A stretch of 64,000 nt of DNA, taken from assembly GCF_030646015.1 (NCBI RefSeq), contig NZ_JAUSLT010000067.1, positions 27,484-91,483 of the forward strand, written 5' to 3'. Of this stretch, positions 9,952 through 55,149 are shown in pieces; position 1 is the first letter of the stretch, and every line of letters begins with the position of its first letter. A program made the position numbers and the translations under genes. This DNA is from Bradyrhizobium sp. Its GTDB lineage: Bacteria > Pseudomonadota > Alphaproteobacteria > Rhizobiales > Xanthobacteraceae. Under the pieces are notes generated by a model. The model was not told the origin of the DNA. It did no database searches and worked only from the letters and a program-made list of their open reading frames with translations.

Positions 9952-11073
9952 ATGATTGCAATTCCTGATGGGATTTCCGTGAAGACCGAGTTGATTGACC
10001 GCATCTACGAATGCTCGTTTGTGCCGGAACTGTGGCCCGGCGTGCTGGACGAGCTGGCCCACCTCACGGATTCGCGTGGCGGCCTGTTGTTCTCGGCCCG
10101 CGACCGGGTCCTGAAATGGACCGCGTCCGCGAACTTGAACGATATTTTCCGGTCCTACGTCGAGGACGGGTGGTTTTCACGTTGTCCGCGCCGGATCTGC
10201 CTGTTTGGAAAGACGCTGCCGGCCTTCTTCGTCGAGCATGATTTCTGGACGCAGGAACAGCTCGACAGCAATCCGATCTACCGGGACTTCTTTCGCCCGC
10301 GCGGGCTCGGCTGGTCCGCCGGTACCGGTCTGCAATTGCCTACCGGCGATCATATCGTCTTCAGCATTGAGCGCGATCACAGCCGCGGACCGATCGAAAA
10401 AGAGCGAGTCGAATTGCTGAACGAGCTGCGCTCTCATCTGGCGCGCAGCGCCTTCGTTGCGGCCCGGCTGGGGTTGCAGCGCGCCAGGGGCGCCAAGGAG
10501 GCGCTGACAGCGATGGGATTGCCCGCGCTGCTGCTCGGCCAGGACGGCACGGTGATCGAAGCCAATCCCCTGATCGAGGATTTGCCCGACCATTTGCAAT
10601 GGCGTGCGCAAAACCGCATCGCGCTGGCGGATGGCCACGCCAACGAGCTGTTGCGGGCAGCGCTTGCCGCGCTCGATACCAATGCCGAATTGTCCGTCCG
10701 CTCGTTTCCGCTGCGTGACGCCGACGACAAAGCGGCCCTGGTGGTTCATCTCATTCCGATCCGGCGCTCCGCCCACGACATCTTTGCCGGCAGCTACGCG
10801 CTGCTGGTGGTGACGCCGGTGTCGGCCCCGGCAGCGCCGCCGGTAGAACTGATGCGCTCGCTGTTCGACCTGACCGTGTCGGAAGCCCGGGTGGCGCGGG
10901 GGCTTGCCGTCGGCGAGACTCTGGAGGAGATTGCCGTCAGCGGCGGGGTGGCCATCTCCACCGTCCGCTCGCAGCTGCGTCAGGTGCTGGAAAAAACCGG
11001 ATGCGCCCGCCAGGCCGAAGTGGTGTCGCTGCTGGCCAATGTCACGCTTGATCGCAGCACGGCGAGGAATTAG
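9952..11073 (+). CDS. LuxR-family transcriptional regulator
   Basis: C-terminal LuxR/FixJ HTH (LTVSEARVARGLAVGETLEEIAVSGGVAISTVRSQLRQVLEKTG). Co-directional with the lasso precursor ORF 94-112 nt downstream. Confidence 0.8.
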   Translation: MIAIPDGISVKTELIDRIYECSFVPELWPGVLDELAHLTDSRGGLLFSARDRVLKWTASANLNDIFRSYVEDGWFSRCPRRICLFGKTLPAFFVEHDFWTQEQLDSNPIYRDFFRPRGLGWSAGTGLQLPTGDHIVFSIERDHSRGPIEKERVELLNELRSHLARSAFVAARLGLQRARGAKEALTAMGLPALLLGQDGTVIEANPLIEDLPDHLQWRAQNRIALADGHANELLRAALAALDTNAELSVRSFPLRDADDKAALVVHLIPIRRSAHDIFAGSYALLVVTPVSAPAAPPVELMRSLFDLTVSEARVARGLAVGETLEEIAVSGGVAISTVRSQLRQVLEKTGCARQAEVVSLLANVTLDRSTARN

Positions 11074-11185
11074 CCTCGGATTCGGCGCGCCGCTTCATCT
11101 ATTTAGAGGATGACGCCCGGATTGGCCGACCGCACTATTGGCATGGCGTGATTTGCGCCTGAATCACATGAAATGGAGATATTTC

Positions 11186-11299
11186 GTGAAATCATACACC
11201 AAACCGACGCTCGTCAAGCTGGGTAGCCTCGCGCTGATCAAGTCCAATTCGACGGGACCGAGCACCGACGGCAAGAAGTATTCCGGCTTCTTCAAGTAA
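11186..11299 (+). CDS. putative lasso-peptide precursor (A peptide), 37 aa; not in the supplied ORF track
   Basis: GTG at 11186 lies 6 nt after GGAGA (11175-11179). An in-frame ATG at 11168 lacks an SD sequence. TAA stop at 11297-11299. Translation: VKSYTKPTLVKLGSLALIKSNSTGPSTDGKKYSGFFK. The leader matches the RRE-recognition motif Y-x2-P-x-L-x3-G. Third codon positions are GC-rich, and a hairpin plus T5 follows. Confidence 0.6.
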   Translation: MKSYTKPTLVKLGSLALIKSNSTGPSTDGKKYSGFFK

Positions 11300-11323
11300 G
11301 ACGGAAGCGTCGGCGAAATCCAG

Positions 11324-11355
11324 GCGGCGAGCTCCTCGCGGGCGCGCCGCTTTTT
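11324..11355 (+). terminator. putative rho-independent terminator after the precursor ORF
   Basis: GCGGCG...CGCCGC stem (11324-11350) followed by TTTTT (11351-11355). Confidence 0.45.
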
Positions 11356-11377
11356 CATGGCTAAAAGAGCTTCATGG

Positions 11378-13138
11378 TTACGAGGATCTGGCGGATATCA
11401 GCCCGGCGATCTCTCGTCCGATAGTCCGGTGGCCGACAAAAGCCTGCCGCCAGCCGAGATAGCCCATCAGGGCCATCGCCGAGCGGGTTGAGCTGGTCGC
11501 GATGCCGAACGAGAGCTGCTCCAGCGCGTAGTTCGCGGCCCGGCGGTCGATCCAGTCGTCGGGGGCCGTCCTGAGCAGGGCCGCGAAATACTCCCGCGCC
11601 TTGTTCACATAGGTCAGCTGAAATGAATTGAACACGAAGGTATCGTTCTGACGCCCGCGCAGGGATTCCGGCACGATGCCCTTCTGGGCTTCCCGCAGCA
11701 GCTCCTTGTAGCGGCCCTCGAAGTCATGGACGAGAAGGGCGCTCACCTCATCATAGACGAAGTCCAGCAACGGAAGATCGCAGAACGGCGAGGCGTCGGT
11801 CAGTCGCTTCGCGGCGAAATGGCTCTGCGTCACCGTCCGCGGCGCAGAAAAGTAACCCCAGTCATCGCAGATGATGCCGTCGCCGACCAATTCCCTTTCC
11901 CGGGTTTCACGCTCCGTCGAATAGGCGTGGAGAGTTCTGCCGCACCGCAGCCAGGGAACCGAATCGGTCAGCATGCGGCGCATGTTGACGTCGCTGACAT
12001 CGAACGGATTCCACCCCCTGTCGCCAAACATCCGGTTCAGCCGCTGGTGGATGCCTTCGGGAACGAGCGACAACAGGCTCTGCCAGCCGAGATTGGTGCG
12101 GCCGCGCGAAAGCAGCGCGCTGGCCGGGGGCAGGGCATTGGCGAAGTGCCGGTATTCCCGGCGCTGCAGCAGATAGGGAAGAAATGACGGCGCGCGCAGG
12201 AACAGCTGATCCGCGCCGAATCCGGTAAAGACCTGCGAGCCGGGTTCCGCCACATCGGCGACCGCTCGCGAAAACCAGTCGCCGAACCAGAAGAAATCGC
12301 TCGGCTCGTCGGAATAACCGGGGTTCTCGTCGACGCTGGTCGGAAGCTCTTCAGGGGGCATGACGACGAGATCGATCCCGTAGCGGTCCGCGACCTCGCG
12401 CGCATAGCCTTCGCTGATCGCGTGAGAGGGCAGGTTGGGCTGCGAGAACATCACGCCGCGAATACCAGAAGCCTGTTCGCCCAGCAGGCAGGCAATGAAG
12501 GACGAGTCGAGGCCGCCGGAGATCTCGACGCAAATTTTCGCATCCGGATTGGCTGCAAGGCGGCCCTTGATCGAGTCGCGCAGGATCGCCAGTATTTGCG
12601 GCGCAACGTCTTCGCGGCGCTGCGCGCCATCCAGCCGATAGCCGTAACGCCTTCGCACGAGTTGTTGCCGTGTAACGGGGCGACCAAGGCGAATCAATTC
12701 ACCGGGAAGGACCCTGCTGACATCAGCGAGAGGCGTTTCCGTGCTCAGGAACTGATAGCCGGGCACGAGCAGAACGTGCCTGGCGAAGTAATGTTCGTTC
12801 CAGCGGGAACTGGAAGCATCGAAGAAAAAGCCGAGGCGGTTGGCGACCGCGCCATCCCGCTCCCGATAGTAGATCTGATACTGCGACGTGAAGCTCTTGA
12901 ACGCGTAGGTGTCCTGATCCGTCACGATGATGGCGACGAAGTCGCCGACCGCCTTGGCGATCGCTGACGGACCCTCGCGATCAATCAGCGCGCCCAAATG
13001 ATCCAGCGCCCGACGCCTGACCTGGTTGTCGACCCGGAAGACGGCGCCCTCGATCAGAATTGTTCCCAAGGCACAATCAATCGTGCTGCAGTCTCGATCG
13101 GCGCTCCAGCGGGCTTTGGCAGCCGCGTTTGCGTTCAT
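11378..13138 (-). CDS. lasso peptide isopeptide-bond-forming cyclase (asparagine synthetase-like, McjC-type)
   Basis: 586 aa. PP-loop ATP-pyrophosphatase motif ICVEISGGLDSSFIACLL. Asn-synthase B-like architecture without a catalytic N-terminal Cys2. Sits next to the B1, B2 and D genes. Confidence 0.85.
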   Translation of the reverse strand: MNANAAAKARWSADRDCSTIDCALGTILIEGAVFRVDNQVRRRALDHLGALIDREGPSAIAKAVGDFVAIIVTDQDTYAFKSFTSQYQIYYRERDGAVANRLGFFFDASSSRWNEHYFARHVLLVPGYQFLSTETPLADVSRVLPGELIRLGRPVTRQQLVRRRYGYRLDGAQRREDVAPQILAILRDSIKGRLAANPDAKICVEISGGLDSSFIACLLGEQASGIRGVMFSQPNLPSHAISEGYAREVADRYGIDLVVMPPEELPTSVDENPGYSDEPSDFFWFGDWFSRAVADVAEPGSQVFTGFGADQLFLRAPSFLPYLLQRREYRHFANALPPASALLSRGRTNLGWQSLLSLVPEGIHQRLNRMFGDRGWNPFDVSDVNMRRMLTDSVPWLRCGRTLHAYSTERETRERELVGDGIICDDWGYFSAPRTVTQSHFAAKRLTDASPFCDLPLLDFVYDEVSALLVHDFEGRYKELLREAQKGIVPESLRGRQNDTFVFNSFQLTYVNKAREYFAALLRTAPDDWIDRRAANYALEQLSFGIATSSTRSAMALMGYLGWRQAFVGHRTIGREIAGLISARSS

Positions 13139-13204
13139 TGCAGGCTCCGATAGTTATCGGTTACTCTCCTGGGGCAGAGCAGTCTTACGGAAATCGTCGC
13201 ATTC

Positions 13205-13600
13205 ATGAGCGCATCAATTTTGTGTTTGTCCCATTTCTCCACGAAGCTTTTCGGGATTGACCGAGCCATCACTTTTTTCCGATGGCTGGGACGCGCCCGC
13301 GGGCCCGGCCGCTCGCCAAATGCAACAGCAGAGGATCTTGCCGGCCGCGCGATACGTGGCATGCAGCTATTGCCGCTCAGGATCGAGTGTCTCGATCAGG
13401 CGGTTGCTACGTGGTACGTCCTGAACCGTCATGGCCATCCGGCTTCCCTCAGGATCGGCATGCGGCTGTCGCCGCTGTCGGGCCACGCCTGGGTGATATG
13501 CAATGAGCAAACGTTCATAAAAACCCCCGGCATGGAAGATTTCACGGTCGTGGCTTCCTACCCGCCCTGGGTGGAAACCAGCTGCGTAAATTTCAACTGA
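13205..13600 (+). CDS. lasso peptide biosynthesis B2 protein (transglutaminase-like leader peptidase)
   Basis: LLPLRIECLDQAVATWYVLNRHGHPASLRIGMRLSPLSGHAWVICNEQTF matches the conserved C-L...G...L..G...HAW core of McjB C-terminal/B2 proteins. Confidence 0.8.
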   Translation: MSASILCLSHFSTKLFGIDRAITFFRWLGRARGPGRSPNATAEDLAGRAIRGMQLLPLRIECLDQAVATWYVLNRHGHPASLRIGMRLSPLSGHAWVICNEQTFIKTPGMEDFTVVASYPPWVETSCVNFN

Positions 13601-13830
13601 ACGAGTTCGGCAACGAGTTCTTCGAAGTCGTCCCGAATTTCCTGGCGCTCGGCGCCGTACTCGCCCGCCAGCCGATTGACGACTTCATCCAGGTCGGCCT
13701 CGAGCCCGAGCCGCAGCATCCGCGCAGCCGTTTCATTGAGGCCGTAGGAATCGCCTGTCTTCACCGAGAACAGGACGTCCTTTCCTTCGACATTGGTGAG
13801 CGTCGTGCCGGGAGCCAATCGAATATGCAT
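13558..13830 (-). CDS. lasso peptide biosynthesis B1 protein (PqqD-family RiPP recognition element)
   Basis: 90 aa. PqqD pattern: VEGKDVLFSVKTGDSYGLNETAARMLRL...LDEVVNRLAGEYG...EIRDDFEELVAELVQL. Confidence 0.75.
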   Translation of the reverse strand: MHIRLAPGTTLTNVEGKDVLFSVKTGDSYGLNETAARMLRLGLEADLDEVVNRLAGEYGAERQEIRDDFEELVAELVQLKFTQLVSTQGG

Positions 13831-13877
13831 TTTCCAACCGCTTTAAGATGAAGGAGCCTCAGGGAGAACCGTGGAAG

Positions 13878-15740
13878 TCAGGGGATTTGGAAATCAGGGG
13901 ATTTGGGCGGCGCGAAAGAAGAGTGTTCGCCGCCGGGGAGGCGTCCGCCTGTCTGATGTTGCCAGAGAGAGGCGTAAAGCCCCCCGCTGATGATGAGCTG
14001 TTCGTGCGATCCTTCCTCGAGAATGCGTCCCGCATCCAGTACGACAATCCTGTCCATTCGGGCCAGCGTCGAAAGCCGATGCGCAATGGTAATCACTGTT
14101 TTCCCCACCATCAGCGTGTCCAGCTGCTCCTGGATCGCGTGCTCCGCCTCGGAGTCGAGCGCCGCGGTGGCTTCGTCCAGCACCAGGATGGGGGCGTTCT
14201 TGAGCAGCGTGCGCGCCAGAATGATGCGCTGGCGTTGCCCGCCCGACAATTTCGCACCGCGCTCGCCGGCGCTTGAATCGAGCCCGGTGCGGCCGTCCTC
14301 GTCCTGTAGCTCCGACACGAATTGCGCGACCCGGGACTGGTTCAGCGCACGCTCGAGTTCGCCCGGCGTGGCATCGGGCTTGCCGCACATGATGTTGTCG
14401 CGAATGGAGCGGTGCAGCAGCGCCGTGTCCTGGGTGACGACCCCGATGCAGGATCGCAGGCTGTCCATCGAGACGTCCTGAATGCTTTGTCCGTCGATCA
14501 CGATGGAGCCGTCCTGGATATCGTAGAGCCGCAACAGAAGGCTGACGAGCGTCGACTTGCCCGCGCCGGATCGCCCGACAAGACCGACCCGCTCGCCCGG
14601 CGCCAGGGTCAGGGTAAATTGCTCGAACAGCGGGCGCTCGCTGGAGTACCCGAAACCGATTTGCCTGAACTCGATCGCGCCGGCCTTGATCTCCAGCGTC
14701 TTCGCGTTGGGCATATCGACCATCGTATTGGGCGCCGCGATCGACTCCATCCCTTGCTTAACGTCGCCGAGATTCTGGAATATGCCAGAGACCTCCCAGG
14801 CGACCCAGCCGCCGGTGCTTGCCAACTGCCATACCAGGGGCAGCGCCATCGCCACGGCCTCGGCTGGAATGGACTCGTTCAGCCACAGACTGACGCCGAT
14901 AACGCCGGTGCCTGTCAGCAGTGCCGTATTGAGAAGCGTCAGGCTGGTCATGAAGCCGGTGATGGCCTGCATGTGGCGCAGCTGGGTATCGTTGTGCGAC
15001 AGCAGCGCGCGGCGAACGTGATCGTTGTCGGTCGCGGCATAGGAGAAGAGTTTGATGGTGAGAATGTTGCTGTAGCAGTCGACGATCCCGGCCATCAAAT
15101 CCGAATAGGCCTGCGAACTGCCTTCGGCCCTTGTCCGCAGACGAGGCACATAATAACGCAGCAACAGGCCGTAGCCGCAAAACCAGCCCGCAATGGGAAG
15201 CGCCAGTCGCCAGTCCGCACCTGCAAGCAGGAAGGCGCTGGCGCCACCATACATCGCGAGATACCACACCGCGCGAATGGCGGCCTCGGCGGTTTCGCGC
15301 AAGGAGCCGGCGGTATGCATCACCCGGTGGGCGAGGCGGCCGGGAAAATCATTCTGGAAGAATTGCCAACTCTGGTTCACCACCAGCCAATGGCTGATCC
15401 AGCGCATGCGCGATGTGACGCCGGGAACGAGGTAGCTGTTTCGCAGATGCAGATCGAGATAGATCAGGGCAGGGCGGACGAGTCCGATCGCGACCAGAAG
15501 CGCGACAAGTGTCGGCCAACGCTCCAGCCAGGCCTGCCACCGGTCGGGCTGACCGACGAAAGCCACCACCTTGCCGACGAACACGGACACCATCGCGTCG
15601 GCGCAGGCGACGCCGAAGCCGCAGATGAACAGCCAGACGAAAATCTTCTTATGCTCGGCGAGAAAGTATCGGTAGAACGCGAATAACGAGGAACGGGGGA
15701 CGTCGGGCGGCGGGGCGGCGGCAATATCAATTTGGTTCAT
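13878..15740 (-). CDS. ABC transporter permease/ATP-binding protein (McjD-like lasso peptide exporter)
   Basis: 620 aa. N-terminal 6-TM exporter domain, Walker [10 protein letters not shown], signature LSGGQRQR and Walker B ILVLDEATAALD. Confidence 0.9.
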   Translation of the reverse strand: MNQIDIAAAPPPDVPRSSLFAFYRYFLAEHKKIFVWLFICGFGVACADAMVSVFVGKVVAFVGQPDRWQAWLERWPTLVALLVAIGLVRPALIYLDLHLRNSYLVPGVTSRMRWISHWLVVNQSWQFFQNDFPGRLAHRVMHTAGSLRETAEAAIRAVWYLAMYGGASAFLLAGADWRLALPIAGWFCGYGLLLRYYVPRLRTRAEGSSQAYSDLMAGIVDCYSNILTIKLFSYAATDNDHVRRALLSHNDTQLRHMQAITGFMTSLTLLNTALLTGTGVIGVSLWLNESIPAEAVAMALPLVWQLASTGGWVAWEVSGIFQNLGDVKQGMESIAAPNTMVDMPNAKTLEIKAGAIEFRQIGFGYSSERPLFEQFTLTLAPGERVGLVGRSGAGKSTLVSLLLRLYDIQDGSIVIDGQSIQDVSMDSLRSCIGVVTQDTALLHRSIRDNIMCGKPDATPGELERALNQSRVAQFVSELQDEDGRTGLDSSAGERGAKLSGGQRQRIILARTLLKNAPILVLDEATAALDSEAEHAIQEQLDTLMVGKTVITIAHRLSTLARMDRIVVLDAGRILEEGSHEQLIISGGLYASLWQHQTGGRLPGGEHSSFAPPKSPDFQIP

Positions 15741-16004
15741 AACACGTCGCTGGTTCGGCGAGACAATCGGCCCGCTTGTGTTCCCGGCGTCGTGGCCCGC
15801 GCCGAGATTCGATATGGCGTTCTTCTACATGGCGAAGAGGGACCTTGTCCGAGGAATCGGCGCTGCGCGCGGCGATATATTTCGGTCGTTTTCATCAATT
15901 TAGGGGATGCGGCCCCGACGGACCGACCGCACGGTTGGCGTGACAACAGCTGTCACCAGCCTCCGGCGAGCCGGAGCTGGCGTTCCCAACAGGAGGAGAA
16001 TTCC

Positions 16005-16151
16005 ATGATTCGCTTTTCAGCTCTGGTTGCCGCTGCGTTTGCGCTCGCGGTTTTCGTCGGCGGATCGCTGGCACAGGCCCAGACCGCCTCGGACCCGAAG
16101 AGCCAGCCCGGCAGCGGCCAGTGCCGACTGTCAAACGGGCAACGCTGCTAG
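16005..16151 (+). CDS. small secreted peptide with C-terminal Cys-x7-Cys (48 aa)
   Basis: ATG at 16005 lies 6 nt after AGGAGGAG. Sequence MIRFSALVAAAFALAVFVGGSLAQA|QTASDPKSQPGSGQCRLSNGQRC, with a predicted Sec signal ending AQA. Confidence 0.5.
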   Translation: MIRFSALVAAAFALAVFVGGSLAQAQTASDPKSQPGSGQCRLSNGQRC

Positions 16152-16180
16152 GCTGACGTGACTTGCGCCAATCCGCTCAC

Positions 16181-17002
16181 CTATCGAATAAACGATCCCC
16201 ATAGCGCGGCATTGGCCAGCGTTCCCAGTTCATTCATGTGGCAACCGTCATGCGGATTGCGGCCGTCGTTGCCGATCAAATCGGTGTCCGGCCCTGGCCG
16301 AATGTTCAGTTGATCGTTGACGGCGGACAGCTGGGCGGCGCGAACGGCCGCGACGTTGGTGGGCGCGTACACATCGCACTTGGTGGTGCGCGACAGATAG
16401 AAGGGCGCATCAAACCCGGCCGCGCGAAATCGTTTGACGAATTGATGCAGCAGCGAAACATATTGCTGCTGCGTCGTGGTCAGGATCGCGTCCTTTTCGC
16501 CCTGCTGAACCAGAAAGTGGGTTGGCCGGAGTTTTGCGGCCTGAAGGGCTGACATGGCGCGGTCGATCCGCTCGGCGTGCTCGTTGTTCAGCGCCGACAG
16601 CGATGCGCCTTCCACGGCAAAGGATGCGACGATGACGCGATCATACCGTCCCGCCTGGATCAGGAGGTCGCCAAGGCGCGTTCCGAAGTTGCCGCCGGCG
16701 CCATCGGCCCCCAGCAGCGGATCGGCAGCCGCGAAGCATTTGCCCGAAGCGGGGTCGAAATTGTCAACGGCTTCACGGGCGGAGTATCGGGTGTTGCCGT
16801 AATTGGCCGCGTTGCTTTGGCCCAGCAGCACGATCACGGCCGTTCGATCGGAATCCGGCAGGCAAGGTCGTTCAATCCGCGGGAGCGGCGGGAGCGCGGT
16901 CAGATTGATCTGGCTGCTGCGGGGACTGACGAGATGGCTGCCGATCGCACCAATCAGCACGCCACCGATCAGGAACGCGAGATTGCGTCGCATTGGAATC
17001 AT
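16181..17002 (-). CDS. SGNH/sialate-O-acetylesterase-like hydrolase (secreted or membrane-anchored)
   Basis: Internal ATG at 17002 overlaps the upstream stop (ATGA). N-terminal TM/signal segment. GQSNA motif (VLLGQSNAANYG) typical of DUF303/sialate O-acetylesterase-type SGNH enzymes, and a C-terminal DGCHMN motif. Confidence 0.6.
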   Translation of the reverse strand: MIPMRRNLAFLIGGVLIGAIGSHLVSPRSSQINLTALPPLPRIERPCLPDSDRTAVIVLLGQSNAANYGNTRYSAREAVDNFDPASGKCFAAADPLLGADGAGGNFGTRLGDLLIQAGRYDRVIVASFAVEGASLSALNNEHAERIDRAMSALQAAKLRPTHFLVQQGEKDAILTTTQQQYVSLLHQFVKRFRAAGFDAPFYLSRTTKCDVYAPTNVAAVRAAQLSAVNDQLNIRPGPDTDLIGNDGRNPHDGCHMNELGTLANAALWGSFIR

Positions 17003-18183
17003 GACACCGCTGGAACGAGGACCGGCTTGTCGGTCGCGTGGCGTGCTTTCTTCAATCTGTTCTGCCGCCATCGATCGATCGGTGCCTCGACCCATCTGTA
17101 AAGCATGATCGAGGCGATCAGGGACATCGCCAATGCGAGGCACGCGCCCGCAATGGTCTCCGGCAGCAATATCCATCCAAACAGGAAGTGACAGATATAG
17201 AGCGGGTACGACAGTTCGCCGAGATGCCGGTCCCAGGCGATATCACGGGTCGATTCGAACAGGCGCGGCACGCCGATGATGACGGCGCAGAGCAGCGACA
17301 ACGATGCCAGCCGCGAAACGCCATCCCATTTGCTCAGGGCCAGCGCAGCGAACAATGACACCGCCGCGGTCGAGAGCAGGCGATACACCTGCTTGCGCTC
17401 CTCGTCGGTCCGCGAAACATAGGCGTAGTAACCGAGCGAACCCGTCAGGAACAGCGCGATCTCGGAGGGAAAGAACCGGTACGTCCATGGTTCTCCACTG
17501 AAGCCGAAGCCCCAGAGCAGCGCGATCCGCAGGATCAGGCTCCCGGCGATGGCTGCCGCAATGACGAGGGGTCCGCGTCGCACAACGAATGGCGCGAGCA
17601 GGTAGAAATAGAATTCCAGCCCCAGCGTCCACGCCTGGGGAATCGGCGCGAACGTATACAGCAGGCCCGACATCCCGCCTGGATGCAGCGTGGAGGCCAA
17701 TGCGCCATTGCTGATGAACAGGAAGAAGTAGATCTCCTGACCGACGATGAAGATCTGCGACCCTATCCAGAACGCCAGACCGGGCAGGTCCAGCGCAGCA
17801 ATCGGCCCCCAATTGGGGGCCACCGCGAGCGACAGAACCAGCACGACGGCATAGGTTGGCCAGAGTCTCAGCACGCGATTGGAGATGAACAGAAAATACG
17901 AGCCGGGCCCATATTTTTCATTCAAGACCAGCGCCATGTAGAAGCCGGAGATGACGAAGAAGCTCTGTACCGCGATGTCGCTGGTCGGAAATCCGAGCGG
18001 GATCCCGAAATGGACGAGCACGACGGAAAGCGCGAGAAACAATCGAAGGCTGCCCATGGATAAATGTTGGCGGGACAATCTTGAGGAAGTCTTAATGATT
18101 CTCGAAAACCTGGCGCGGCCAGAGCTTTCGCGGCGTCCTGTTTCCCGCCCTGGGCTAGGAGTTGCGTCTGCCGAACAGGACAT
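16999..18183 (-). CDS. acyltransferase-3 family membrane O-acyltransferase (start uncertain: 18183 or ATG at 18057)
   Basis: Multi-TM protein. LRLFLALSVVLVHF...QSFFVISGFYMA is typical of the acyltransferase_3 family. Confidence 0.8.
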   Translation of the reverse strand: MSCSADATPSPGRETGRRESSGRARFSRIIKTSSRLSRQHLSMGSLRLFLALSVVLVHFGIPLGFPTSDIAVQSFFVISGFYMALVLNEKYGPGSYFLFISNRVLRLWPTYAVVLVLSLAVAPNWGPIAALDLPGLAFWIGSQIFIVGQEIYFFLFISNGALASTLHPGGMSGLLYTFAPIPQAWTLGLEFYFYLLAPFVVRRGPLVIAAAIAGSLILRIALLWGFGFSGEPWTYRFFPSEIALFLTGSLGYYAYVSRTDEERKQVYRLLSTAAVSLFAALALSKWDGVSRLASLSLLCAVIIGVPRLFESTRDIAWDRHLGELSYPLYICHFLFGWILLPETIAGACLALAMSLIASIMLYRWVEAPIDRWRQNRLKKARHATDKPVLVPAVS

Positions 18184-19375
18184 GCCCCGATCGCCACAGG
18201 CGCTCGCAGGCGTCGCGAGCGAAATTCGTCCTTTGCGCCGGCTCGAGCCGCGCGAACACGGCGTGGGACAGAATTTCCGATATGCTCCTGTTTCCGTCGG
18301 CCTGCTCCAGCAGCAAGGCTTCCGCTCTCGATATCGGGATCCTCATTTCCCCCTGAGGCGAGGGGCGCGTCAGCATCAATGCGTTGGCATCACCGGCGAG
18401 CCGGGTGCCGGCGCGAATGAACGGGACATACGACAGATAATCATCGGTGTCGAAACGCGTGAGGAAGCGTGCGCTTTGCGGCTTCCTGACGAAAAAATCG
18501 TGCCGGTCGTTCAGCACGGCAAGATTGTCGATGACGGCCCACTGCTCCGCGGCCGGCAGCGCCAAAACCCTGTCCAGCATCTCTCCGCTCAGAAACCGAT
18601 CGGCGCAGTAGAGCGCGTTGTCGTTCCAGCCGAAGAAAACGAGCCCGGCCGTTTCGACAAACGTCATGACCTCCGGTACCGAATAGGCCCGGTCCTGGGG
18701 GTGAAGCAGCATGTCCACGACCCCCGCATCGTCGGCAAGGTCATTGGGAAGTTTGCCGGTCGTCGAGATCAGAGGATGATTCGGCGGGACAAACTTCAAG
18801 AGCTCGCGGGCCATCCTGAGGCCCCCGGCATCCGGACCGGCGCCAAGCCGCCGCAGGGTATCCTGGAGTAAATAGACGCCAGCGCGCCCCGCCGTCCCGT
18901 AAAGCATGATGGCCATGCTTCCCTCGAGATCGAGTACGTCCGCGAGTGCCCGGAGTCCGGCATCCGGATCCGGAAGGTGATGCAGGACGCCGGTGGAAAT
19001 GATCAGGTCAAAGGAGCGATTCAACCTGGCGACGTCGAGCAGGCTCACCTGCCGAAGTTCGAGGTTGCTGAGGCCGTGTCGATCGCGATGGCGGTTGGAG
19101 TGCGCGAGGCTGGCCTCGGAAAGATCGATGCCGACGACCGAACAGTCTGGGTTATTGAGGGCGATCAGAGGCGCCTGCGAAGAGCCGCAACCGGCGCACA
19201 GGATGCGCAGGTCCTGCCGCGGCCGCCCCTCCGGCCACAACTGAACGCCCGCAAATCGGGGGTCGCATGTCAGCGGTCCCCATTGCTTCAGGAATTTCTC
19301 GGCGTCCTCGATTGGCGGCGGATAGCTGTACGCCTCGTACTGCTTCCTGACCGCCTCTGTAACTGTATCTTCCAT
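18155..19375 (-). CDS. class I SAM-dependent methyltransferase with extended C-terminal region (possible RRE-like wHTH)
   Basis: Motif I ILCAGCGSS; VVGIDLS; post-I/II LIISTGVLHHLPDP. About 230 further residues end in IPISRAEALLLEQADGNRSISEILSH...FARDACERLWRSGHVLF. Confidence 0.8.
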   Translation of the reverse strand: MEDTVTEAVRKQYEAYSYPPPIEDAEKFLKQWGPLTCDPRFAGVQLWPEGRPRQDLRILCAGCGSSQAPLIALNNPDCSVVGIDLSEASLAHSNRHRDRHGLSNLELRQVSLLDVARLNRSFDLIISTGVLHHLPDPDAGLRALADVLDLEGSMAIMLYGTAGRAGVYLLQDTLRRLGAGPDAGGLRMARELLKFVPPNHPLISTTGKLPNDLADDAGVVDMLLHPQDRAYSVPEVMTFVETAGLVFFGWNDNALYCADRFLSGEMLDRVLALPAAEQWAVIDNLAVLNDRHDFFVRKPQSARFLTRFDTDDYLSYVPFIRAGTRLAGDANALMLTRPSPQGEMRIPISRAEALLLEQADGNRSISEILSHAVFARLEPAQRTNFARDACERLWRSGHVLFGRRNS

Positions 19376-19409
19376 GAAAAGACTCTAGATCTGCCCGATC
19401 CAGCCCGCA

Positions 19410-19510
19410 ATGGTCGCGGAGAACTTCGACGCGAATCTGAAATGCGTTCGTGTTCATGAGGGCGGGTACTCCGACGATAAGGACGGCCGCGGCGGCGACC
19501 ATACGCCGGT
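19410..19510 (+). pseudogene. remnant of a GH108-type phage lysozyme N-terminus
   Basis: NFDANLKCVRVHEGGYSDDKDGRGGDHT resembles the conserved GH108 N-terminal HEGGY..d..D.GG.T block. Similarity is lost after about 35 codons. Confidence 0.3.
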
Positions 19511-19868
19511 GGCGGCGAGCCAGCCTGAATTTCAGCTTGACGGGCGGTTCGCCTTTTCGAGGAGTGTGGCCCACGTGAACCACCACGTACGGTGTAACGC
19601 TTGATGCCAATTCGACTGTGGGCCCGCGCTTGATTCGCGTGGTCGCTTCAGAGAGCGCCAGCGCCTGGAGTCGGCGGTTGCATCAATGTTCATTTCAATT
19701 TCAGCGATCAGTTCAAGCCCTGATTTCCGTACTTCTACGGTCCGTTGCGAGCCGCCCACCCATCAGCGTTAGCGAAGTGTAAAAGTTGATCGATTAAATT
19801 TGCCTAATAGATGGGCATTGCCGATTCGACGTAGATCCGACGAATCCCAAAATGATCAGGAAATAATC

Positions 19869-21839
19869 ATGAGCGGCTTTTCCGTTCGTCTCACCCACAA
19901 GATCATGGCGATAGGCATCGTCGGGTTGCTCGGGCTTCTCGCATTCGGGGCGATCTATCAGATTGGAAACGGGTTGCAGGATGGCTCGCGGATTGTCGCT
20001 GACGAAGGCCGCGCCATCTCCAGCCTGAACAAGCAGATTTCGATCAAGATGCTGGAAGCGCGCAGGGCCGAGAAGGATTTCCAGCTCCGTCGCCAAGAGT
20101 CCTACTTGAAGCGTCATTCGGAATTGTCTGCCGGAATACAACGCGACATCGACAAATTGAAATCCATGGTGCAATCTGGCGACTTCAACGTCATCCTGCA
20201 AAAGGTCGAGATCGCGCAGCGCGGCTTCGCAAACTACGTAAAGAACTTTGCAGGTTTGGCGCAAGCCGAGGTCAAGCTTGGCTTGAACGAGAAGCTCGGC
20301 CTGACCGGTTCGCTGCGCGGCGCCGTTCACGACATCGAAGCCAAGCTCAAGGAAATCGATAATCCGCGGCTGACCAGTTCGATGCTGATGTTGCGGCGGC
20401 ATGAGAAAGATTTCATGTTGCGGCGCGACGAGAAATATGTCGGTCAACTGAAGAAAACCGCCGGGGAGTTCTCAAAGTTGCTGGCAAGCGCCGACATTCA
20501 GCCGGCGCTGAAGTCCGACATCGCCGGGAAGCTGGAAAAATATCAGGCGGATTTCTCTGCCTGGGCCACCGTCGCGCTGGAAGTCGCGAACTATGGCGCC
20601 GCGGTGTCGAAGACGTTTCACGACATCGAGCCTGTGATCGCCGAGGTCGAGAAAGATGTCGAGCAGCTGTACACTGCGGCTGAAGCCCATGAGGCGGCGA
20701 CGCGCAGCTCGGTCGCCATGTGGATGGTGATCGCGTTCGCCCTGGCGGTCGTCCTGGTGATTGGACTTTCGCTATTGATTGGACGGTCGATCTCGAAGGC
20801 ACTCGCTTCGATGGTCTCGGCGATGACCCGGCTTGCGAAAGGCGACCTCAGGATCGCGATTCCGGGCCTCGGCCGCCGGGACGAGATCGGCGAAATGGCC
20901 GGCGCGGTCGAAGTGTTCAAGAACAGCATGACCGAGGCGGAGCGGCTGCGCGCCGAACAGCGTGAGACCGAGCAACGGCAGCTGGAACAGCGCAAGGCCG
21001 ACATGCGCGAGCTTGCCGACGCTTTCGAAGGCGCGGTGGGCGAGATCGTCGAGACGGTGTCTTCGGCTGCGACCGAACTCGAAGCTTCCGCCGATACGCT
21101 GACGAGGGCCGCCGAGCGATCGCAGAACCTTGCCACCGTGGTCGCCGCGGCTTCCGAAGAAGCATCCACCAATGTGCAATCGGTTTCCGCAGCCAGCGAG
21201 GAACTGACCGCGTCGGTGAACGAGATCAGCCGGCAGGTCCAGGAATCATCCCGGGTCGCCAGTGAAGCGGTCGATCAGGCGCAGGAAACCAATAACCGCG
21301 TCAGCGCACTGTCGCTGGCCGCCAGTCGTATCGGCGACGTGGTCGAATTGATCAACACCATCGCCGGACAGACCAATCTGCTGGCGTTGAACGCGACCAT
21401 CGAAGCGGCGCGCGCCGGCGAGGCCGGTCGCGGCTTTGCCGTGGTGGCGTCGGAAGTGAAGGCGCTCGCCGAACAGACGGCGAAAGCGACCGGCGAAATC
21501 AGCCAGCAGATACAGGGCATTCAGGCCGCCACCCAGGATTCGGTGGGGGCCATCAAGGAGATCGGCAACACCATCGGCCGCATGTCGGAGATCTCCTCGA
21601 CCATTGCCTCGTCGGTTGAGGAGCAGGGCGCTGCGACGCAGGAAATATCGCGCAACATCCAGCACGCAGCAGAGGGCACGCAGCAGGTTTCCTCGAACAT
21701 TGCCGAAGTGCAGCACGGCGCGACCGAGACCGGTTCGGCCTCCGCACAGGTTCATTCCGCGGCGAAATCGCTGTCAAGCGAAAGCAACCGACTCAAGCTC
21801 GAGGTCGGAAAATTTCTCAATTCAGTCAGGGCCGCCTGA
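19869..21839 (+). CDS. methyl-accepting chemotaxis protein
   Basis: Internal ATG at 19869. TM1, a periplasmic helical sensor, TM2 and a HAMP domain. Highly conserved signalling hairpin ([44 protein letters not shown]). Confidence 0.9.
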
Positions 21840-55067: not shown

Positions 55068-55149
55068 TGGTGAGCGCGGAGGGACTCGAACCCTCGACCC
55101 CATGATTAAAAGTCATGTTATCCACACTCAACCGGACGCAACCGCACTC
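55068..55149 (-). tRNA. tRNA-Lys(UUU)-like sequence with a non-canonical D region; possible att site or pseudo-tRNA
   Basis: The minus strand reads GAGTGCG...CATGA-CTTTTAA-TCATG-GGGTC-GAGGG-TTCGAGT-CCCTC-CGCGCTC-A-CCA. The anticodon arm, T arm and 7-bp acceptor pairing are canonical. The acceptor-to-anticodon-stem segment is 25 nt rather than about 19 and forms no good D stem. Confidence 0.45.

What the first reader, a model, noticed from the sequence alone, without database searches (positions are those of the whole stretch)
11168..15740. Cryptic lasso-peptide (RiPP) gene cluster with split B protein and alternating-strand layout
**Seen in the sequence.** Five adjacent genes carry the hallmarks of lasso-peptide maturation:
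- 11378-13138(-): Asn-synthetase-like cyclase with PP-loop ICVEISGGLDSSF.
- 13205-13600(+): transglutaminase-core leader peptidase B2 (RIECLDQAV...SGHAWVI, a Cys/His pair).
- 13558-13830(-): PqqD-like RRE B1.
- 13878-15740(-): McjD-type ABC exporter.
- 11186-11299(+): a 37-aa ORF absent from the ORF track.

**Established.** This enzyme set defines lasso peptide clusters. In Proteobacteria the B protein is usually a single fused polypeptide and the genes are usually co-directional.

**Inference.** Here B is split, which is the actinobacterial/firmicute style. The genes alternate strands (A+, C-, B2+, B1-, D-). A LuxR-type regulator (9952-11073) is co-directional with the precursor. The product is probably an uncharacterised lasso peptide.
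Basis: partly seen in the sequence, partly recalled or inferred. Interest (0 to 1): 0.85.

Follow-up and report, generated by a model that had tools for sequence, protein, structure and literature searches.

The report
Lasso peptide gene cluster, Bradyrhizobium
This is a real, intact gene cluster for a knotted ("lasso") ribosomal peptide in a Bradyrhizobium genome; it belongs to an uncharacterised but widespread family with an unusually conserved peptide and an odd but conserved gene layout, and its chemistry is otherwise ordinary.

Summary
All five ORFs lie at the stated coordinates. Pfam and NCBIfam place them as an Asn-synthetase-like cyclase (C), a lasso B2 protease above NCBI's curated cut-off, a PqqD-type RRE (B1) and an ABC exporter (D). 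The 37-aa ORF (GTG 11186) is a real gene. It has a GGAG ribosome-binding site and a conserved terminator, evolves mainly at third codon positions, and sits beside the enzymes in 29 loci from Alpha-, Beta- and Gammaproteobacteria and one Polyangiaceae MAG.

The leader carries the RRE-binding YxxPxL motif. Asp28 is the only acidic residue in the C-terminal half and is invariant.

The split B and the opposite-strand B2 are conserved across the family, so they are not a local rearrangement. The canonical Thr(-2) is absent. A conserved I-K-[S/G]-N junction, also seen in distant relatives (IK|GN), favours cleavage after Ile-Lys. That gives an 18-aa Ser1-Asp9 lasso, SNSTGPSTDGKKYSGFFK (M 1888.896). 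Asn1-Asp8 is the rival.

The core (86% mean identity) is better conserved than the enzymes (62-68%).

NCBI already names this B2 "lasso peptide biosynthesis B2 protein". I call it a new member of a known kind, of moderate interest. Function and threading are untested.

The parts
9952..11073 (+). Putative LuxR-family regulator (C-terminal HTH), co-directional with the precursor gene. Linked to the cluster only in the closest relatives.
   Evidence: All matches are sub-threshold: GerE E 0.009; NF041232 BagY/FevT LuxR 30 bits; TraR HTH E 0.022. It lies adjacent to A in L001-L004 and L022 only. Other clades have other neighbours, e.g. a two-component system in Afipia carboxidovorans OM5.
11145..11159 (+). 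Short GC hairpin (GGCGUGAUUUGCGCC) in the 5' region of the precursor gene. Role unknown.
   Evidence: A hairpin with a different stem sequence sits at the same place, 15-30 nt upstream of the SD, in almost all loci. Per-sequence z-scores are not significant, so this is tentative.
11175..11178 (+). Shine-Dalgarno GGAG of the precursor gene.
   Evidence: GGAG lies 7 nt before the GTG/ATG start in almost all loci shown (L020 has GGAA).
11186..11299 (+). Precursor gene A, 37 aa: (M)KSYTKPTLVKLGSLALIK | SNSTGPSTDGKKYSGFFK. The leader carries YxxPxLxxxG. Predicted core is residues 20-37.
   Evidence: Conserved at 65-97% identity in 29 loci. It shows a coding signature. Y4, P7, G13, I18, N21, T23-S26, D28, G29, Y32, G34, F36 and K37 are invariant. 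Further copies occur in metagenomes.
11322..11356 (+). Intrinsic terminator of the precursor gene (GC stem plus U5), lying between the convergent A and C genes.
   Evidence: The fold shows an 8+4-bp stem followed by UUUUU. A stem plus T-run is present at the same place, with different stem sequences, in 11 of the 12 relatives examined (L001-L006, L008, L009, L017, L020, L024; not evident in L013). The generic terminator scan missed it.
11378..13138 (-). Lasso cyclase C (Asn-synthetase / beta-lactam-synthetase fold, PP-loop SGGLDS). No N-terminal glutaminase Cys.
   Evidence: PF00733 E 1.3e-17. The AlphaFold model (pLDDT 81.5, pTM 0.84) matches TsnB9, beta-lactam synthetase, carbapenam synthetase and AsnB over both domains. 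S207-G-G-L-D-S-S213 is invariant. The sequence starts MNANAA, with no Cys2.
13139..13204 (.). 66-bp divergent intergenic region between the C and B2 start codons. It presumably holds back-to-back promoters.
   Evidence: A gap of 36-109 bp is conserved in all loci that have the B2(-)/C(+) arrangement. No sigma-70 consensus was found, so promoters are inferred only.
13205..13600 (+). Leader peptidase B2 (transglutaminase-core Cys protease), encoded on the strand opposite to B1, C and D.
   Evidence: PF13471 E 3.4e-18. NF033537 scores 69.3 bits against a cut-off of 33. C62, H94 and D112 are invariant in 30-31 of 31 homologues. The opposite-strand orientation is conserved in all loci. NCBI names it a lasso B2 protein.
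13558..13830 (-). RiPP recognition element B1 (PqqD-like). Its 3' end overlaps the 3' end of B2 by 43 nt.
   Evidence: PF05402 E 2.6e-12. NF033530 lasso PqqD scores 37.9 bits, below its cut-off of 70. The best PDB sequence matches are the lasso RREs TbiB1 (5v1u) and TfuB1 (6jx3). The overlap with B2 is present in most alphaproteobacterial loci.
13878..15740 (-). ABC exporter D (TMD-NBD half-transporter). Presumed export and self-protection.
   Evidence: ABC_membrane + ABC_tran. It is MsbA/ABCB-like. It is present in most loci and was not detected in three, L013, L015 and L023.

Best explanation
A functional class-II-type lasso peptide biosynthetic gene cluster in a Bradyrhizobium genome.

Proposed pathway:
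1. The 37-aa precursor is translated from its own short, terminator-bounded message.
2. B1 (PqqD-type RRE) binds the leader through Y4-x-x-P7-x-L9.
3. The B1-B2 pair cleaves after Ile18-Lys19.
4. C adenylates the side chain of Asp28 and joins it to the new Ser20 amino group around the pre-threaded tail. This gives an 18-residue lasso, cyclo(Ser1-Asp9)-SNSTGPSTDGKKYSGFFK, with a 9-residue ring and Tyr13/Phe16/Phe17 as candidate plugs.
5. D exports the product.

What is shown:
- gene identities;
- catalytic residues;
- the reality and conservation of the precursor;
- the leader motif;
- a single invariant acceptor Asp;
- the conserved layout.

What is inferred: the exact cleavage site, ring size, threading, export and biological activity.
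For: Enzyme families:
- HMM placement of C, B2 and B1, with B2 above NCBI's curated lasso-B2 cut-off.
- Invariant Cys62/His94/Asp112 in B2.
- PP-loop and two-domain AsnB / beta-lactam-synthetase fold without a glutaminase Cys in C.
- The nearest solved relatives of B1 are lasso RREs that bind YxxPxL leaders.

Precursor:
- It is adjacent to the enzymes in 29 loci across four lineages.
- It has a coding signature, a conserved SD and a terminator.
- The YxxPxLxxxG motif is invariant, and D28 is the only acidic residue after the leader and is invariant.

Cleavage after IK:
- Position 20 is Ser, or Gly in two independent lineages (L026; P0147). These are classic residue-1 identities.
- Distant relatives (C 28-31% identical) have ...LTIK|GNRNVKSDG..., which gives a canonical Gly1-Asp8 ring.
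- Ile(-2) cleavage by a B1/B2 pair is experimentally documented in Bradymonas (PMC10368454).

All ORFs are intact, so the cluster is not decayed.
Against: - No Thr at -2, which is the usual B2 recognition residue.
- With cleavage after K19, the YxxPxL motif sits at -16/-13/-11 instead of the canonical -17/-14/-12 (PMC10368454; bioRxiv 10.1101/2024.12.20.629632). One of the two rules must therefore be broken.
- C scores far below NCBI's lasso-cyclase models: NF033535 26.8 bits against a cut-off of 525, NF033561 48 against 300. Its assignment rests on context and fold.
- No product, transcript or activity data exist. I found no characterised member of this family in the searchable literature.
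- The Bradymonas cluster with Ile(-2) could not be expressed heterologously, so such clusters may be hard to activate.
Confidence: 0.68

Rival explanations
1. Same cluster and chemistry, but the leader is cut one residue later, after Ser20. This gives a 17-residue lasso with an Asn1-Asp8 ring (NSTGPSTDGKKYSGFFK, M 1801.864).
For: - It keeps the canonical Tyr(-17)/Pro(-14)/Leu(-12) register (motif register from PMC10368454; positions).
- Asn21 is invariant in all 28 sequences and in the metagenome copies.
- Asn as ring residue 1 now has a precedent in metanodin (PMC12670498).
Against: - It puts Lys/Arg at -2, for which I know of no precedent.
- In the distant relatives it would give an Asn1-Asp7 ring instead of a canonical Gly1-Asp8 ring.
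- The only substitutions at position 20 are Ser to Gly, the typical residue-1 pair. A -1 position would be expected to vary more.
Confidence: 0.22
2. The enzymes make a macrolactam peptide that is not threaded (a branched-cyclic peptide), or the cluster is silent or only conditionally expressed. Under laboratory conditions no lasso peptide would then be produced.
For: Threading cannot be read from sequence. The tail is short (9 residues). The Ile(-2) cluster of Bradymonas gave no product in five hosts (PMC10368454). No recognisable sigma-70 promoters were found.
Against: The gene set, including an RRE and a dedicated exporter, is the one known to make threaded lassos. Bulky Tyr13 and Phe16/17 are invariant or nearly so, as expected for plugs. 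Strong purifying selection on the core argues for a made, functional product.
Confidence: 0.07
3. A decaying or rearranged remnant. On this reading the opposite-strand B2 and the B1/B2 overlap result from a recent inversion that broke the operon.
For: The layout is unusual for proteobacterial lasso clusters, which are described as co-directional ABC(D) (PMC12670498, PMC5067487).
Against: The same layout is conserved from Bradyrhizobium to Solimonas, and B2 is also on the opposite strand in clusters with only 28-31% identical C. All ORFs are intact with invariant catalytic residues.
Confidence: 0.02

Closest known systems
Split-B lasso peptide clusters with YxxPxL leaders (fusilassin/TfuB1-B2, TbiB1, paeninodin PadeB1/B2)
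   Same: Separate PqqD-type RRE and transglutaminase-core protease. The leader has Tyr-x-x-Pro-x-Leu. The cyclase is Asn-synthetase-like. An ABC exporter is present. B1's best PDB matches are TbiB1 and TfuB1.
   Different: The host is an alphaproteobacterium. B2 is encoded on the opposite strand, between B1 and C. There is no Thr(-2). Sequence identity to the characterised proteins is low (B1 E 0.006-0.015; B2 and C have no PDB sequence hit).
Bradymonas sediminis bsf cluster (BsfA/B1/B2; Ile(-2) leader), PMC10368454
   Same: Split B1/B2, a YxxPxL motif, and a penultimate leader residue that is Ile rather than Thr.
   Different: bsf and all the Ile/Val(-2) clusters reported there encode a kinase or phosphotransferase; this cluster has none. 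In bsf the motif keeps the -17 register with a Gly1-Asp8 ring. Here Ile(-2) implies a -16 register and a Ser1-Asp9 ring.
Metanodin (soil-metagenome lasso peptide, Asn1 ring residue), PMC12670498
   Same: Proteobacterial. The precursor was missed by automated tools. An Asn lies at or next to the cleavage site.
   Different: Metanodin has a fused B, the classical ABC layout and Thr(-2). Asn1 is only the minority reading here.
Classical proteobacterial lasso clusters (microcin J25 McjABCD, capistruin, astexins)
   Same: Same overall logic: precursor, protease, cyclase and an ABC exporter of TMD-NBD architecture.
   Different: Those have a fused B protein, co-directional genes and Thr(-2). The alphaproteobacterial ones usually carry an isopeptidase instead of D (PMC13352647). 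D here is not specifically McjD-like.
Triculamin/lariocidin-like lasso peptides (bioRxiv 10.1101/2024.12.20.629632)
   Same: The core is unusually conserved across distant taxa. A Gly follows the ring-forming Asp (…DG…). Some canonical clades lack Thr(-2), so annotation pipelines miss the precursor.
   Different: Those cores are highly cationic with a PGDG motif. This core reads GPS[ST]DG and has only three Lys. There is no acetyltransferase or follower peptide. No homology was shown.

Membership tests
Lasso peptide biosynthetic gene cluster | ATP-dependent Asn-synthetase-homologous macrolactam synthetase (C) with a PP-loop and no active glutaminase | tested here: met
   PF00733 E 1.3e-17. SGGLDS is invariant. 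The two-domain AsnB / beta-lactam-synthetase fold is recovered. There is no N-terminal Cys. It does not reach NCBI's lasso-cyclase model cut-offs.
Lasso peptide biosynthetic gene cluster | Transglutaminase-core cysteine protease (B or B2) with a Cys-His-Asp triad | tested here: met
   NF033537 scores 69.3 bits against a cut-off of 33, and PF13471 matches. C62/H94/D112 are invariant.
Lasso peptide biosynthetic gene cluster | PqqD-like RiPP recognition element (B1 or the N-terminal domain of B) | tested here: met
   PF05402 scores 47.3 bits against a cut-off of 23.4. The top PDB matches are the lasso RREs TbiB1 and TfuB1. The lasso-specific NCBIfam models are below their cut-offs.
Lasso peptide biosynthetic gene cluster | Adjacent short precursor whose core has Gly/Ala/Ser/Cys (rarely Asn) at position 1 and Asp/Glu at position 7, 8 or 9 | tested here: met
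   Ser20...Asp28 gives positions 1 and 9, and Asn21...Asp28 gives 1 and 8. Asp28 is the only acidic residue in the C-terminal half and is invariant.
Lasso peptide biosynthetic gene cluster | Leader motif Tyr(-17)-x-x-Pro(-14)-x-Leu(-12) for RRE binding | tested here: met
   Y4, P7 and L/I/V/F9 are invariant or conservative. The register is -17 only under the Asn1 reading; it is -16 under the Ser1 reading.
Lasso peptide biosynthetic gene cluster | Thr at the penultimate leader position (-2) | tested here: not met
   Position -2 is Ile18 (Ser1 reading) or Lys19 (Asn1 reading), in all 28 sequences. This feature is not absolute: Ile(-2) was validated in BsfA (PMC10368454), and Thr-less clades are reported in bioRxiv 10.1101/2024.12.20.629632.
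Lasso peptide biosynthetic gene cluster | The product is a dehydrated, threaded [1]rotaxane | not testable with these tools
   This needs LC-MS/MS, carboxypeptidase or heat challenge, or NMR.
McjD-type lasso exporter | Specific sequence relationship to McjD, beyond the general ABC exporter fold | tested here: not met
   The best NCBIfam matches are MsbA and glucan exporters, all below their cut-offs. The top 60 PDB sequence hits are ABCB1, ABCB19, Sav1866, Atm1 and similar proteins, not McjD. Only the architecture and the cluster context match.
LuxR/FixJ-family transcription regulator (for 9952-11073) | C-terminal GerE-type helix-turn-helix | tested here: inconclusive
   GerE scores 16 bits against a cut-off of 23.5. 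BagY/FevT LuxR E 1.8e-7, far below its cut-off. TraR HTH E 0.022. These are three concordant but sub-threshold signals.

The most novel reading that the evidence does not exclude
This family's lasso peptide may not be a strain-specific antibiotic. It may be a molecule with one conserved target or physiological role, spread by horizontal transfer among Alpha-, Beta- and Gammaproteobacteria and Myxococcota. That would explain why its core (86% mean identity) is held more constant than the enzymes that make it (62-68%).

The protease gene B2 is embedded antisense between B1 and C, with convergent 3' overlap. This arrangement may be a conserved regulatory device: transcriptional interference or antisense pairing that couples or limits protease expression relative to the RRE and cyclase.

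In addition, the B1/B2 pair would define a new cleavage rule, I-K|[S/G]-N, with the YxxPxL motif one residue closer to the cut.
Probability: 0.15. Interest if true: 0.6.

Novelty: new member of a known kind. Interest (0 to 1): 0.38.

Why it matters
If expressed, the cluster would give the first characterised lasso peptide from Bradyrhizobium and the Nitrobacteraceae, and from this roughly 120-cluster family.

It would also settle a concrete biochemical question: which rule a B1/B2 pair obeys when the YxxPxL register and the -2 residue disagree. The two outcomes are Ile(-2)/Ser1 and Lys(-2)/Asn1. The answer bears directly on why antiSMASH- and RODEO-type tools that require Thr(-2) miss precursors.

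The near-invariant core across classes hints at a conserved target worth testing.

Beyond that, the biosynthetic logic is standard. Public annotation already flags the B2 gene as lasso-related.

Tried and rejected
1. Tailoring enzymes in the window. The SGNH hydrolase, acyltransferase_3 and methyltransferase (16.2-19.4 kb) are absent next to the cluster in every relative, and the whole 16175-21832 stretch is an insertion relative to L001/L002. The methyltransferase's C-terminal tail looked PqqD-like by eye but gave no Pfam hit even at E 10. Rejected as cluster members.
2. A PCMT-type methyltransferase lies directly upstream of A in Afipia carboxidovorans OM5 and in L010-L012. It is absent from the window, so it is not part of this cluster.
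3. PDB sequence searches for B2 and C returned nothing. The predicted structure was used for C instead.
4. The sigma-70 promoter scan found 0 sites. The generic terminator scan found 4 against 4.7 expected, and it missed the real A terminator. Neither is informative.
5. Literature searches found no characterised member. I searched for the core and leader strings and for lasso peptides in Bradyrhizobium, Afipia, Oligotropha, Tardiphaga, Solimonas and Orrella. An Afipia taxonomy paper only lists antiSMASH 'lassopeptide' regions.
6. Tietz et al. 2017 (RODEO) and Hegemann et al. 2018 (paeninodin leader residues) are not held. I could therefore not check how much the motif-to-cleavage spacing varies in characterised systems. 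My recollection that paeninodin has a shorter spacing is unverified and is not used.
7. Triculamin-like identity was considered because of the ...DG... motif and the cross-phylum conservation. I rejected it for lack of the PGDG motif and the cationic character.
The 53-aa upstream-extended ORF was used instead.


Full report
**Observation**

- C, 11378-13138(-), 586 aa, with the PP-loop ICVEISGGLDSSF.
- B2, 13205-13600(+), 131 aa.
- B1, 13558-13830(-), 90 aa.
- D, 13878-15740(-), 620 aa.
- A 373-aa regulator-like ORF, 9952-11073(+).

The 37-aa ORF 11186-11299(+) starts with GTG, and a GGAG lies 7 nt upstream. G+C content is unremarkable across the region.

**Enzyme families**

- C matches PF00733 (E 1.3e-17).
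- B2 matches PF13471 (E 3.4e-18). It also matches NCBI's curated lasso_biosyn_B2 model NF033537 at 69.3 bits, against a cut-off of 33.
- B1 matches PF05402 PqqD (E 2.6e-12, 47 bits against 23.4).
- D has ABC_membrane plus ABC_tran.

Across 31 homologues, B2 keeps Cys62, His94 and Asp112. This is the triad expected of a transglutaminase-core protease.

An AlphaFold model of C (pLDDT 81.5, pTM 0.84) superimposes over both domains on TsnB9, beta-lactam synthetase, carbapenam synthetase and asparagine synthetase B. C starts MNANAA and so lacks the N-terminal glutaminase Cys. This fits an enzyme that activates a carboxylate and couples it to a peptide amine. C does not reach NCBI's lasso-cyclase cut-offs, so its role rests on fold and context.

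B1's best solved relatives, though weak (E 0.006 and 0.015), are TbiB1 and TfuB1, the lasso RREs crystallised with YxxPxL leaders.

D is a generic ABCB/MsbA-like half-transporter. McjD is not among its top 60 PDB matches, so 'McjD-type' holds only for architecture.

The regulator has three concordant but sub-threshold LuxR-HTH signals.

**The precursor is real**

C has about 120 listed relatives of 55% identity or more among public proteins. They come from Bradyrhizobium, Afipia, Tardiphaga, Beijerinckiaceae and Orrella.

A scan of one genome per species returned 30 loci. In the loci with C at 42% identity or more, tblastn finds the 37-aa peptide next to the enzymes at 65-97% identity. It is also present in Afipia carboxidovorans OM5.

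Several lines show that it is a coding gene:
- All 29 copies are 37 codons long, except one with a longer N-terminus.
- Differences from the column majority fall 120/103/329 on codon positions 1/2/3.
- Synonymous codon changes outnumber non-synonymous ones in most comparisons.
- In almost all loci shown a GGAG sits about 7 nt before the start codon.
- A GC stem plus U-run follows the stop codon (window 11322-11356). It recurs with different stem sequences in 11 of the 12 relatives examined.

The gene therefore appears to make its own short, terminated message. Gene callers usually miss it or extend it upstream.

**Anatomy of the peptide**

Invariant residues are Y4, K6, P7, G13, I18, N21, T23, G24, P25, S26, D28, G29, Y32, G34, F36 and K37. 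Y4-x-x-P7-x-L9-x-x-x-G13 is the RRE-binding leader motif. D28 is the only acidic residue after the leader, so it must be the isopeptide acceptor.

The usual Thr(-2) is absent, and two cleavage sites are compatible with a 7-9-membered ring.

*(a) Cleavage after I18-K19, giving Ser1-Asp9.* In favour:
- Position 20 is Ser, or Gly in two independent lineages (L026; P0147).
- Much more distant clusters (C 28-31% identical; L028-L030) encode MVYKKPKVVKLGNVLTIK|GNRNVKSDGTTVGYL. They keep the I-K-[G/S]-N junction, and there Gly1-Asp8 is canonical.
- Ile(-2) has been experimentally validated for a split B1/B2 pair in Bradymonas (PMC10368454).

*(b) Cleavage after S20, giving Asn1-Asp8.* In favour:
- It keeps the canonical Tyr(-17)/Pro(-14)/Leu(-12) register (PMC10368454; bioRxiv 10.1101/2024.12.20.629632).
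- Asn21 is invariant.
- Asn1 has a precedent in metanodin (PMC12670498).

Against (b): it places Lys at -2.

I weight (a) to (b) at about 3:1. The predicted masses are 1888.8955 and 1801.8635.

**Layout**

In the window the order is A+ C- B2+ B1- D-. Oriented on C, the relatives show D+ B1+ B2- C+. A lies either after C on the minus strand or before D on the plus strand. Orrella and the Polyangiaceae MAG have rearranged orders, but B2 is still opposite to B1 or C.

B2 and B1 converge in all of them. Their 3' ends overlap by 14 to about 100 nt in most alphaproteobacterial loci (43 nt here). They are separated by 13-329 nt in the beta and gamma lineages. The B2 and C start codons are 36-109 bp apart (66 bp here).

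Even the 28-31% relatives have B2 on the strand opposite to A-B1-C.

The split B and the opposite-strand B2 are therefore ancestral, conserved traits of this clade and not a local inversion. Whether D-B1 transcripts read through antisense B2 into C is unknown. The promoter and terminator scans were uninformative.

**Cluster limits**

To the left, the LuxR-like gene, TenA and a DUF808 gene are syntenic only in the closest MAGs.

To the right, window 16175-21832 holds an SGNH hydrolase, an acyltransferase_3, a methyltransferase and a chemoreceptor. This stretch is absent from L001/L002, where synteny resumes at about 21.8 kb.

No tailoring enzyme is conserved with the cluster, except a PCMT-type methyltransferase in the Afipia/Oligotropha subclade. 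That gene is not in this window.

**Conservation pattern**

Mean identity to the window across 26-27 loci is 86% for the core, 78% for the leader, 68% for C, 62% for B1 and 64% for B2. A core that is more constrained than its leader and enzymes, across three proteobacterial classes and a myxobacterial MAG, is unusual for lasso peptides. It suggests a conserved target. This is an inference only.

**Source and prior knowledge**

The window's B2, B1 and D proteins are identical to MDO8398046-48 of a Bradyrhizobium sp. MAG. C falls in the same 90% cluster as MDO8398045, which NCBI annotates from a later start (563 aa). PGAP already names the B2 'lasso peptide biosynthesis B2 protein'.

No paper in the searchable library contains the peptide strings or describes a lasso peptide from these genera. 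One Afipia paper merely lists antiSMASH lasso regions.

Literature from 2016 stated that all characterised proteobacterial systems had a fused B (PMC5067487). Later work cites the split SyanB2 from Sphingobium (PMC10368454).

**Verdict**

It is a new, uncharacterised member of a known kind, with three noteworthy but not category-breaking features:
- a Thr-less I-K|[S/G]-N junction;
- a conserved antisense-placed B2;
- a cross-class, near-invariant core.

Product structure, threading, regulation and activity remain untested. Interest 0.38.

Noticed in passing
window 16175-21832: A 5.7-kb block next to the lasso cluster is absent from the syntenic Bradyrhizobium-like MAG loci L001/L002. It holds an SGNH/GDSL hydrolase (16181-17176), an acyltransferase_3 (16999-18183), a 406-aa class-I SAM methyltransferase with an unassigned C-terminal ~120 aa (18155-19375) and a methyl-accepting chemotaxis protein (19800-21839). 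It appears to be a strain-specific insertion, possibly a surface-polysaccharide acylation module.
   Followed up: partly
window 11145-11159; the same relative position in L001-L032: A short GC-rich hairpin lies 15-30 nt upstream of the precursor's Shine-Dalgarno in nearly every locus, with different stem sequences. In L006-L009 and L011 a U-run follows it. It could be a 5' mRNA stabiliser, the terminator of the upstream gene or an attenuator. Per-sequence folding z-scores are not significant (-3.7 to +1.1).
   Followed up: partly
L031 3975-4892 (Afipia carboxidovorans OM5, CP002826.1); L010, L011, L012: In the Afipia/Oligotropha subclade a PCMT (protein-isoaspartate O-methyltransferase-type, PF01135) gene sits immediately upstream of the precursor. 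The core there has no free Asp besides the ring-forming one, so a C-terminal methyl ester seems more likely than aspartimide formation. This is inference only. OM5 also has a HisKA_3/GerE two-component pair next to it.
   Followed up: partly
L028 ~6398, L029 ~6111, L030 ~1834: A sister family of lasso clusters occurs in an unclassified bacterial MAG, a Polynucleobacter MAG and an Oligoflexales MAG (C 28-31% identical). Its precursor is MVYKKPKVVKLGNVLTIKGNRNVKSDGTTVG[YF]L, encoded between a divergent B2 and B1-C. It also lacks Thr(-2).
   Followed up: partly
window 55068-55149 (-): ARAGORN calls an 82-nt tRNA-Lys(UUU) with the anticodon at position 40. Rfam's tRNA model matches only 55071-55129 (41.5 bits). 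The length and boundaries disagree, so this may be an atypical or degenerate tRNA.
   Followed up: no
window 15995-16174 (+): A small ORF tail encoding a signal-peptide-like sequence (MIRFSALVAAAFALAVFVGGSLAQAQ...) just beyond D is conserved in L001 (80% over 60 aa by tblastx). It marks the last syntenic segment before the insertion. Function unknown.
   Followed up: no
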